Below are positions 25,384 to 26,041 of a stretch of 64,000 bases of DNA, one piece after another (the stretch's first letter is position 1; each line of letters opens with the position of its first letter). Source of the DNA: Escherichia coli (lineage in GTDB: Bacteria; Pseudomonadota; Gammaproteobacteria; Enterobacterales; Enterobacteriaceae); assembly GCF_024298765.1 (NCBI RefSeq), contig NZ_CP101210.1; one strand, given 5' to 3'. Position numbers and translations under genes: made by a program. The notes below the pieces were generated by a model. The model saw nothing but the letters and a program-made list of their open reading frames with translations, did not search any database and was not told the DNA's origin.

Positions 25384-26041
25384 CAGCCATTTCTGCCTGC
25401 GCTTTGGAGCACAGTAAAGTGCAGGTATGACAAATCAATAACAGATATCCTGATGATATTCTCCCTCTGGCAACTAATAATTTCAGATGAATGAAATATA
25501 AATAGAGCAAAAATATTACTTTCGTTGATTTTTTACAGGGGGCAGGTAGCGCGCAGTATGGTTGTCAGTCTGTTAAATGAAAAAGGACTGTTGTTGGGAC
25601 ACGTTGTTTTTTGTCATATCAGCCCTTCCGGAAACAATAAACCGTATTACGAAGGAGGCTCCCGGACATCTGGTTTAAAGTTTGAACATAATCAAATAAA
25701 AATCTGTTGCCGGAGGGCGTAGTTTTGTGGAACTGACAAATGATGTCAGGAGTATTTATATAATTCACTTACACAAGAGTAATACTACAGGTGCAGTGAT
25801 TTATGGTTGACTCAACGAGAAATCGCTCAGCGGAGCGTTTGACTGGATATCGGTAGCGGGATGTCCTTTATGTCATTTTTGCCTTCTGCCGTAGGAACCA
25901 CAACGTGGGCCCAGACCCGTTGCTTCTCCTTCGGACTCTGTGCCGTATCATCACTGCGGAAGTTCCTGAGAAACCACTGTGAGAGCATGTGCTGATTTCT
26001 GGTGTATCCCATAATAGTATCCTTACATCACTGAATACAAT

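What the first reader, a model, noticed from the sequence alone, without database searches (positions are those of the whole stretch)
25827..26012. 61-codon ORF with H-x-L-S-Q-W-F-L-R-N-F N-terminal motif next to the IS903 truncation point
MGYTRNQHMLSQWFLRNF resembles the N-terminal motif I associate with DUF4238-type proteins found in phage-defense hotspots, but the frame stops after 61 codons. This may be a fragment of a degraded defense gene. The assignment is tentative.
Basis: inference. Interest (0 to 1): 0.3.

Follow-up and report, generated by a model that had tools for sequence, protein, structure and literature searches.

The report
Plasmid gene stub carried by ISEcp1
The 61-codon ORF is the first 57 codons of a plasmid DUF4238 gene that came into the E. 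coli chromosome as passive cargo at the tail of an ISEcp1-blaCTX-M-14 transposition unit; this is an ordinary by-product of resistance-gene transposition and shows which plasmid type the gene came from.

Summary
The ORF is real (25827-26012, minus strand). Bases 25843-26046 are 100% identical to a stretch of IncI-gamma/K1-type plasmid backbone. That stretch holds the stop codon of a TIR gene, a 29-nt spacer and the first 170 nt of a 376-aa DUF4238 gene (Pfam PF14022, 39.6 bits). The fragment carries that subfamily's invariant motif NQHxLSQWxLRNFRSDD.

It is not a defence gene that decayed in place. It is the distal 204 bp of a 4,784-bp ISEcp1 transposition unit (25843-30626): ISEcp1::IS10, blaCTX-M-14, truncated IS903, then plasmid backbone. 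The unit is flanked by a 5-bp duplication, TTTGA. It sits in a chromosomal HTH-WYL-WCX regulator gene. Removing the unit and one TTTGA restores the intact 298-aa regulator.

Plasmids with the donor arrangement exist. An independent unit that carries only 154 bp of the same backbone also exists.

Verdict: a truncated hitchhiker, probably non-functional. It is an ordinary case of a well-known process and is useful only as a provenance marker. Interest is low.

The parts
25827..26012 (-). The 61-codon ORF. Codons 1-56 plus 2 nt come from the plasmid DUF4238 gene. Codon 57 stays Ser by chance (AGT here, AGC in the plasmid). Codons 58-61 (QTLR) and the stop are read from chromosomal DNA, antisense to the start of the regulator gene.
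25843..26046 (-). 204 bp of IncI-gamma/K1-type plasmid backbone carried as cargo. 25843-26012 is the first 170 nt of the DUF4238 gene. 26013-26041 is the 29-nt spacer with the native AAGGA ribosome-binding site. 26042-26046 is TTAAT, the duplication left by the earlier insertion into the plasmid, and it includes the stop codon of the TIR gene.
   Evidence: 100% identity to L001 6001-6204; annotation; junction sequences
25838..25842 (.). Target-site duplication copy 1 (TTTGA), next to the right end of the unit
30627..30631 (.). Target-site duplication copy 2 (TTTGA), next to the ISEcp1 IRL
25843..30626 (-). The complete 4,784-bp ISEcp1 transposition unit, in the order IRL, tnpA, IS10, IRR, blaCTX-M-14, truncated IS903, 204-bp plasmid backbone
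26047..26712 (-). Truncated IS903 (666 bp; transposase lacks its C-terminus). Its truncated end is the right end of the older, shorter unit.
26715..27590 (-). blaCTX-M-14
27633..30626 (-). ISEcp1, 1,656 bp once the IS10 insert and its duplication are removed. The canonical IRR is at 27633-27646, the IRL at 30613-30626 and tnpA at 29178-30440.
27822..29150 (-). IS10 (ISVsa5), 1,329 bp, inserted in ISEcp1 between tnpA and the IRR. It is flanked by a 9-bp duplication, CACTCAATT (27813-27821 and 29151-29159).
25803..25842 (+). First 40 nt of the chromosomal HTH-WYL-WCX regulator gene, cut by the insertion
30632..31488 (+). The rest of the interrupted regulator gene. Joining it to 25803-25842 restores a 298-aa protein identical to the intact copy in L003.

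Best explanation
The ORF is a non-functional 5' stub of a plasmid DUF4238 gene. ISEcp1 brought it into the chromosome by one-ended (read-through) transposition.

Step 1 (shown). A 3,242-bp unit, ISEcp1-blaCTX-M-14-truncated IS903, has its right end inside IS903. It inserted into an IncI-gamma/K1-type plasmid exactly at the end of a TIR gene, 29 nt upstream of a DUF4238 gene, and duplicated TTAAT.

Step 2 (shown from the structure; the order of events is inferred). IS10 inserted into ISEcp1 between tnpA and the IRR.

Step 3 (shown from the junctions; the enzymology is inferred from established knowledge of ISEcp1). ISEcp1 transposed again from that plasmid. It used its IRL and skipped both its own IRR and the earlier end in IS903. 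It ended 204 bp further on, inside the DUF4238 gene. The resulting 4,784-bp unit landed in codon 14 of a chromosomal HTH-WYL-WCX regulator gene and duplicated TTTGA.

The DUF4238 reading frame therefore runs 170 nt, crosses into chromosomal DNA and stops after four foreign codons. The stub keeps its start codon and ribosome-binding site, so it could be translated from read-through transcripts. It has only 15% of the protein and is most likely inert.
For: - Window 25843-26046 is 100% identical to plasmid backbone (L001 6001-6204). That stretch covers the TIR gene stop codon, the spacer and the DUF4238 start.
- The unit is bounded on one side by the ISEcp1 IRL, CCTAGATTCTACGT. It is flanked by TTTGA on both sides, and the uninterrupted chromosome L003 has a single TTTGA.
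- Removing the unit and one TTTGA restores a 298-aa regulator identical to the intact allele.
- Donor arrangement: IncI-gamma/K1 plasmids p15A63 (L004) and pFY10_3 (L008) have the unit between an intact TIR gene and an intact DUF4238 gene, with a TTAAT duplication.
- The short unit has the same IS903 end at an unrelated chromosomal site, with its own duplication TAATA (L007).
- An independent unit in Salmonella plasmid pQT6365 (L006) carries only 154 bp of the same backbone and has its own duplication TCCTA.
- The literature describes 5-bp AT-rich duplications, surrogate right ends and hitchhiking gene fragments as the norm for ISEcp1 (PMC6061673; PMC11966408; PMC7364219).
- The parent gene is a Pfam DUF4238 member and the fragment carries the invariant N-terminal motif.
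Against: - The right end at 25843 shows no more similarity to the ISEcp1 IRR or IRL than chance: 4/14 and 3/14, against a background mean of 3.5. The older end in IS903 scores 8/14 (background P about 0.009).
- In the best donor-like plasmids found, ISEcp1 is partly deleted (L004, L005, L008). No plasmid in the collections has an intact ISEcp1::IS10 next to an intact DUF4238 gene, so the exact donor was not recovered.
- Lack of function of the stub is inferred, not tested.
Confidence: 0.9

Rival explanations
1. A DUF4238 defence gene once sat at this chromosomal site and was destroyed in place by IS903 or ISEcp1 insertion.
For: The ORF begins with a true DUF4238 N-terminus and abuts mobile-element DNA. 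The surrounding chromosome is a variable island with defence-like genes.
Against: - Uninterrupted chromosomes (L003 and hundreds of others) have no DUF4238 sequence here. The chromosome match stops at 25842 and resumes at 30627.
- The fragment is 100% identical to plasmid DNA, including the upstream TIR stop codon and spacer.
- It lies inside the unit bounded by the duplication.
Confidence: 0.02
2. The junction at 25842/25843 was made by a non-transpositional event, such as illegitimate or microhomology-mediated recombination or an IS-mediated adjacent deletion after a larger plasmid segment integrated. In this reading it is not the end of an ISEcp1 unit.
For: - The right end has no IRR-like sequence (4/14).
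- The unit's first bases (CTGGATATC) resemble the chromosomal bases just beyond the duplication (TTGATATC), matching 7 of 8 at a 1-nt offset.
Against: - A perfect 5-bp duplication abuts both the IRL and the plasmid-derived end, and it matches a single copy in the empty site. A deletion or recombination would not produce that.
- There is no shared base at the junction itself.
- Three other junctions of the same element series all show 5-bp duplications.
Confidence: 0.05
3. The 61-residue product is a functional small protein. For example, it could be an N-terminal decoy that interferes with DUF4238 proteins, retained by selection.
For: - The native start codon and an AAGGA ribosome-binding site are retained.
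- The ORF has the same orientation as blaCTX-M-14 and the IS903 transposase, downstream of the ISEcp1 promoter region.
- It holds the most conserved block of the subfamily.
Against: - Only 15% of the protein remains.
- The tail is four arbitrary residues.
- An independent unit carries a shorter 154-bp version, so the length is set by where transposition happened to end.
- It is found at one chromosomal site in 3 of 5,426 complete genomes.
- Its identity to the donor is 100%, so there has been no time for selection to act.
- A terminator-like hairpin lies upstream in the truncated IS903.
Confidence: 0.03

Closest known systems
ISEcp1 transposition units with hitchhiking gene remnants (ISEcp1-blaCTX-M-14-IS903D-iroN, ISEcp1-blaCTX-M-14-truncated IS903D-truncated lamB, ISEcp1-blaCTX-M-55-truncated orf477, ISEcp1-blaCMY-2-blc-sugE-truncated ecnR)
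   Same: It has the IRL at one end and a surrogate right end beyond the resistance gene. It has 5-bp AT-rich duplications. A truncated fragment of whatever gene lay downstream in the previous host replicon sits at the distal end.
   Different: The remnant here is the 5' end of a plasmid DUF4238 gene, which I did not find described in the papers searched. The unit is 4,784 bp because IS10 sits inside ISEcp1. The IS903 truncation gives a 3,242-bp core unit rather than the 3,060-bp one described as common.
Pfam PF14022 (DUF4238) proteins, including the single-gene anti-T7 system from the P2 prophage hotspot (Rousset et al. 2022, PMC9122126)
   Same: The parent gene passes the Pfam threshold. The fragment carries the family's N-terminal motif. 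Distant homologues sit in mobile-element hotspots: a P2-like prophage end, Vibrio cassette arrays and an ICE-like region.
   Different: The window holds only 57 of 376 residues. Neither the fragment nor the parent matches any PADLOC model. No phage test exists for this subfamily as far as I could find.
TIR-domain defence systems of E. coli that include a DUF4238 partner (PMC11350192), and PADLOC candidate PDC-S35
   Same: On the donor plasmids, the DUF4238 gene lies 29 nt downstream of a CAP12/PycTIR-type TIR gene. That TIR gene matches PDC-S35 at E = 1.9e-60.
   Different: Only the TIR stop codon reaches the window. I could not check whether the plasmid pair is one of the validated systems, because the accession table is not held. 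Distant homologues of the DUF4238 protein lack a TIR neighbour.

Membership tests
Pfam PF14022 (DUF4238) | Protein scores above the Pfam gathering threshold (27 bits) | tested here: not met
   The 61-aa ORF and its 56-aa plasmid-derived part give no hit even at E <= 10, and no other frame of 25384-26045 hits either. The full-length parent on the plasmid does pass (39.6 bits, E = 5.3e-10, residues 6-182 aligned to profile positions 1-161).
Pfam PF14022 (DUF4238) | Conserved N-terminal motif at the start of the domain | tested here: met
   N6 Q7 H8 S11 W13 L15 R16 N17 F18 R19 S20 D21 D22 are invariant in 15 homologues spanning about 40-99% identity. The Pfam alignment of the parent begins at residue 6. 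BLASTP of the fragment against Pseudomonas P0114 gives 65% identity over residues 3-57, E = 1e-24.
Pfam PF14022 (DUF4238) | A complete domain (profile of 281 positions; proteins of about 370 aa in this subfamily) | tested here: not met
   Only 57 residues match. The frame leaves plasmid DNA at 25843 and stops at 25827.
ISEcp1 transposition unit | ISEcp1 with its IRL forms one boundary of the inserted segment | tested here: met
   The IRL CCTAGATTCTACGT ends at 30626, exactly where the chromosome resumes. A 420-aa tnpA ORF is present.
ISEcp1 transposition unit | 5-bp, usually AT-rich, target-site duplication flanking the whole unit, with a matching empty site | tested here: met
   TTTGA is at 25838-25842 and 30627-30631, and there is a single copy in L003. 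Excision in silico restores the regulator ORF exactly.
ISEcp1 transposition unit | Right end resembles the ISEcp1 IRR (surrogate IRR) | tested here: inconclusive
   The end at 25843 matches 4/14 to the IRR, which is chance level (mean 3.5). The older end at 26047 matches 8/14 (background P about 0.009). Published surrogate ends can be very weak, for example GCGCAGTTTTTCGA, so a weak match does not exclude membership.
ISEcp1 transposition unit | Cargo is contiguous with what lay downstream of ISEcp1 in a previous replicon | tested here: met
   Plasmids L004 and L008 show the same truncated IS903/backbone junction continuing into an intact DUF4238 gene.
Known or candidate anti-phage defence system (PADLOC-DB v2) | Protein matches a defence-system model | tested here: not met
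   The fragment and the parent DUF4238 protein give 0 PADLOC families. Only the plasmid TIR neighbour, which is absent from the window, matches PDC-S35.
Known or candidate anti-phage defence system (PADLOC-DB v2) | Experimentally shown protection against phage | not testable with these tools
   Evidence exists only for other DUF4238 proteins. The accession list needed to compare them is not held.

The most novel reading that the evidence does not exclude
The stub is transcribed by read-through from the ISEcp1/blaCTX-M-14 promoter and translated from its native ribosome-binding site. The 61-residue peptide carries the invariant NQHxLSQWxLRNFRSDD block and acts as a dominant-negative or decoy toward full-length DUF4238 proteins, for example those on incoming IncI/K plasmids or prophages.
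Probability: 0.02. Interest if true: 0.4.

Novelty: new member of a known kind. Interest (0 to 1): 0.12.

Why it matters
Its main value is as a provenance mark. The 204-bp footprint shows that this chromosomal blaCTX-M-14 copy passed through an IncI-gamma/K1-type (IncB/O/K/Z group) plasmid, at one specific site between a TIR gene and a DUF4238 gene, before it became fixed in the chromosome of chicken-associated E. coli.

The nested series of units (0, 154 and 204 bp of backbone) is a clean natural example of how ISEcp1 picks up progressively more neighbouring DNA.

There is also a methodological lesson. A short true gene fragment can be invisible to a family HMM yet be identified with certainty by nucleotide identity to its donor.

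It does not reveal a new system or a new mechanism.

Tried and rejected
- Pfam scan of the ORF, of its plasmid-derived 56 aa and of the other ORFs in 25384-26045: nothing relevant. The family assignment therefore had to come from the donor gene.
- PADLOC scan of the fragment and the parent: no model matched.
- PDB sequence search with the parent protein: only a chance hit at E = 0.59. I did not go on to structure prediction, because the parent gene is not in the window.
- Looking for an IRR-like sequence at the 25843 end: chance level.
- Testing whether the TIR-DUF4238 pairing is conserved in distant homologues, which would have supported a two-gene system: it is not conserved.
- Trying to match the plasmid pair to the validated E. 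coli TIR systems: the supplementary accession table is not held.
- Searching the literature for the strains and plasmids involved: one paper mentions EC17CM2 but does not describe this locus.
- First BLAST reading of a 14-bp overlap at the chromosome junctions: rejected after base-by-base inspection. It comes from a gapped extension, and the true duplication is 5 bp.
- My first coordinate for the regulator start (25804) was off by one because of an indel between L003 and the window. It was corrected to 25803 by translation.

Full report
**Observation.** On length alone it is unremarkable, since 82 ORFs of at least 30 aa overlap the surrounding 8 kb. It lies 34 nt from the point where an IS903 copy is cut off.

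A Pfam scan of the ORF, of its first 56 residues and of the other ORFs in 25384-26045 found no DUF4238 hit, even at E <= 10. Other evidence shows that the criterion was too strict.

**What the DNA is.** Megablast of 25384-26045 shows that the region is a mosaic.
- 25384-25842 is E. coli chromosome.
- 25843-26046 is 100% identical to a site on more than 160 conjugative plasmids of Escherichia, Klebsiella, Salmonella and Enterobacter. There it is annotated 'DUF4238 domain-containing protein | nucleotide-binding protein'.

In plasmid Plm (NC_019097, IncI-gamma/K1; locus L001), the 204 bp cover three things: the last bases and stop codon of a 367-aa TIR-domain gene, a 29-nt spacer, and the first 170 nt of a 376-aa gene. 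That 376-aa protein passes Pfam PF14022 (DUF4238) at 39.6 bits against a cutoff of 27.

In an alignment with 15 homologues down to about 40% identity (Vibrio, Shewanella, Pseudomonas, Aeromonas and others), the block NQHxLSQWxLRNFRSDD is invariant. The ORF follows the family through residue 57 and then diverges. Against a Pseudomonas member, the fragment alone is 65% identical over residues 3-57 (pairwise E = 1e-24). So the ORF is the N-terminal 15% of a DUF4238 protein. Codon 57 remains Ser by chance. Codons 58-61 and the stop are read from chromosomal DNA.

**How it got there.** Window 16384-35045 is identical to the chromosome of chicken isolate ECJXMCRH7. On the minus strand the annotated order is:
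- ISEcp1 transposase
- IS10 (ISVsa5) transposase
- blaCTX-M-14
- truncated IS903 transposase
- the 204 bp of plasmid backbone

Comparison with an uninterrupted chromosome (W2-5, L003) places the inserted segment at 25843-30626. The ISEcp1 IRL (CCTAGATTCTACGT) ends at 30626. TTTGA occurs immediately outside both ends, while the empty site has one TTTGA.

The target is an HTH-WYL-WCX regulator gene that starts at 25803. Joining 25803-25842 to 30632-31488 gives a 298-aa protein identical to the intact allele. A precise IRL boundary, a 5-bp AT-rich duplication and a matching empty site are the established signature of ISEcp1 transposition. ISEcp1 is known to use its IRL together with weak surrogate right ends beyond the adjacent gene (PMC6061673; PMC11966408).

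**The donor arrangement exists.**
- In IncI-gamma/K1 plasmids p15A63 (L004) and pFY10_3 (L008), the same blaCTX-M-14-truncated IS903 junction is followed by the intact DUF4238 gene. In p15A63 the unit is flanked by a TTAAT duplication that regenerates the TIR gene's stop codon, so both neighbours stay intact.
- The same short unit (3,242 bp without IS10) has the identical IS903 end at an unrelated chromosomal site in FDAARGOS_1291, with its own duplication TAATA. It therefore moves as a unit.
- In Salmonella IncHI2 plasmid pQT6365 (L006), ISEcp1::IS10-blaCTX-M-14-truncated IS903 carries only 154 bp of the same backbone and is flanked by TCCTA.

Three nested units (0, 154 and 204 bp of backbone), each with its own 5-bp duplication, show repeated read-through transposition from one donor site. 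The length of the DUF4238 stub was simply set by where each event ended.

**Weak points.**
- The 14 nt at the 25843 end match the IRR at 4/14, which is chance. The end in IS903 matches 8/14 (background P about 0.009).
- The donor-like plasmids found have ISEcp1 partly deleted, so the exact donor molecule was not recovered.
- Lack of function of the stub is inferred. It retains its ATG and an AAGGA ribosome-binding site. It lies in the same orientation as blaCTX-M-14, downstream of a promoter-like site in the ISEcp1 end. A terminator-like hairpin lies in between, inside the truncated IS903.

**Is the parent a defence gene?** It is plausible but not shown.
- A single-gene DUF4238 system from a P2 hotspot protects against T7 (PMC9122126).
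- One validated E. coli TIR system includes a DUF4238 component (PMC11350192).
- The plasmid TIR neighbour matches Pfam CAP12-PCTIR_TIR (E = 4.7e-35) and PADLOC candidate PDC-S35 (E = 1.9e-60).
- Distant homologues sit in mobile-element hotspots.
- Against this, the parent protein matches no PADLOC model. Its distant homologues have no TIR neighbour. The accession list needed to equate the plasmid pair with a tested system is not held.

**Frequency.** Among 5,426 complete E. coli genomes, the truncated IS903/DUF4238 junction occurs in three chromosomes and one plasmid. The three chromosomes are all chicken isolates and all share this insertion site. In the plasmid collection, five records hold it in full and one holds the 154-bp form.

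**Verdict.** The 'degraded defence gene' reading should be replaced by 'hitchhiking 5' remnant at the distal end of an ISEcp1-blaCTX-M-14 transposition unit'. This is a new instance of a thoroughly known phenomenon, comparable to the truncated iroN, lamB, orf477 and ecnR remnants. It is useful as a marker of plasmid origin and of low intrinsic interest.

Noticed in passing
window 25803-25842 + 30632-31488 (regulator); about 31537-34234 (two downstream genes; L003 6365-7444 and 7491-9062): The ISEcp1 unit knocks out an HTH-WYL-WCX regulator (BrxR/CapW-like architecture). Two genes lie immediately downstream, and these match PADLOC candidate defence models PDC-M09A (3.5e-22) and PDC-M40B (1.3e-42). 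The damaged defence-related gene at this locus may therefore be this regulator, and the insertion could change expression of those two genes.
   Followed up: partly
window about 32663-34234 (L003 7491-9062): RefSeq names this 523-aa protein 'ATP--cob(I)alamin adenosyltransferase', but Pfam finds no domain at all and its only strong match is PADLOC PDC-M40B. The product name looks unreliable.
   Followed up: partly
window 27813-29159: IS10 (ISVsa5) is inserted in ISEcp1 between tnpA and the IRR, with a 9-bp duplication CACTCAATT. The same insertion is present in L004, L005 and L006 but absent in L007. It therefore marks a sub-lineage of the unit, and it remained mobile despite the insertion.
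   Followed up: partly
window 25843-25851 versus 30632-30639: The first bases of the unit (CTGGATATC) resemble the chromosomal bases just past the duplication (TTGATATC), matching 7 of 8 at a 1-nt offset. This caused a misleading 14-bp BLAST overlap. The other three junctions of this element series show nothing similar, so it is probably coincidence, but it is unexplained.
   Followed up: partly
L005 (K. pneumoniae NZ_CP079764, IncFIA/IncR) 1-10300: This non-IncI plasmid carries more than 7 kb of IncI-gamma/K1 backbone (the DUF3800 and DUF4238 genes and others). The same truncated IS903 junction is present, but the beta-lactamase allele is CTX-M-27 rather than CTX-M-14. The bla allele therefore differs within an otherwise identical context.
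   Followed up: no
window 16384-24565 versus L003 1-4182: Upstream of the outer-membrane protein gene, the window carries a sucrose (scr) PTS operon and an H-NS-family gene. Strain W2-5 instead has a type I restriction S subunit, an AAA ATPase and an integrase remnant. This stretch is a variable genomic island.
   Followed up: no
window 26412-26430, minus strand: A strong terminator-like hairpin (8 pairs, 7 of them G-C, followed by a T-rich tail) lies inside the truncated IS903, between blaCTX-M-14 and the DUF4238 stub. It may limit read-through into the stub.
   Followed up: no
protein P0055: This is a 311-aa 'partial' DUF4238 protein that is 100% identical to the parent over 83% of its length and has 109 member sequences. 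It suggests that truncated copies of this gene are common in E. coli assemblies, possibly the complementary remnants left on donor plasmids or contig-edge artefacts.
   Followed up: no
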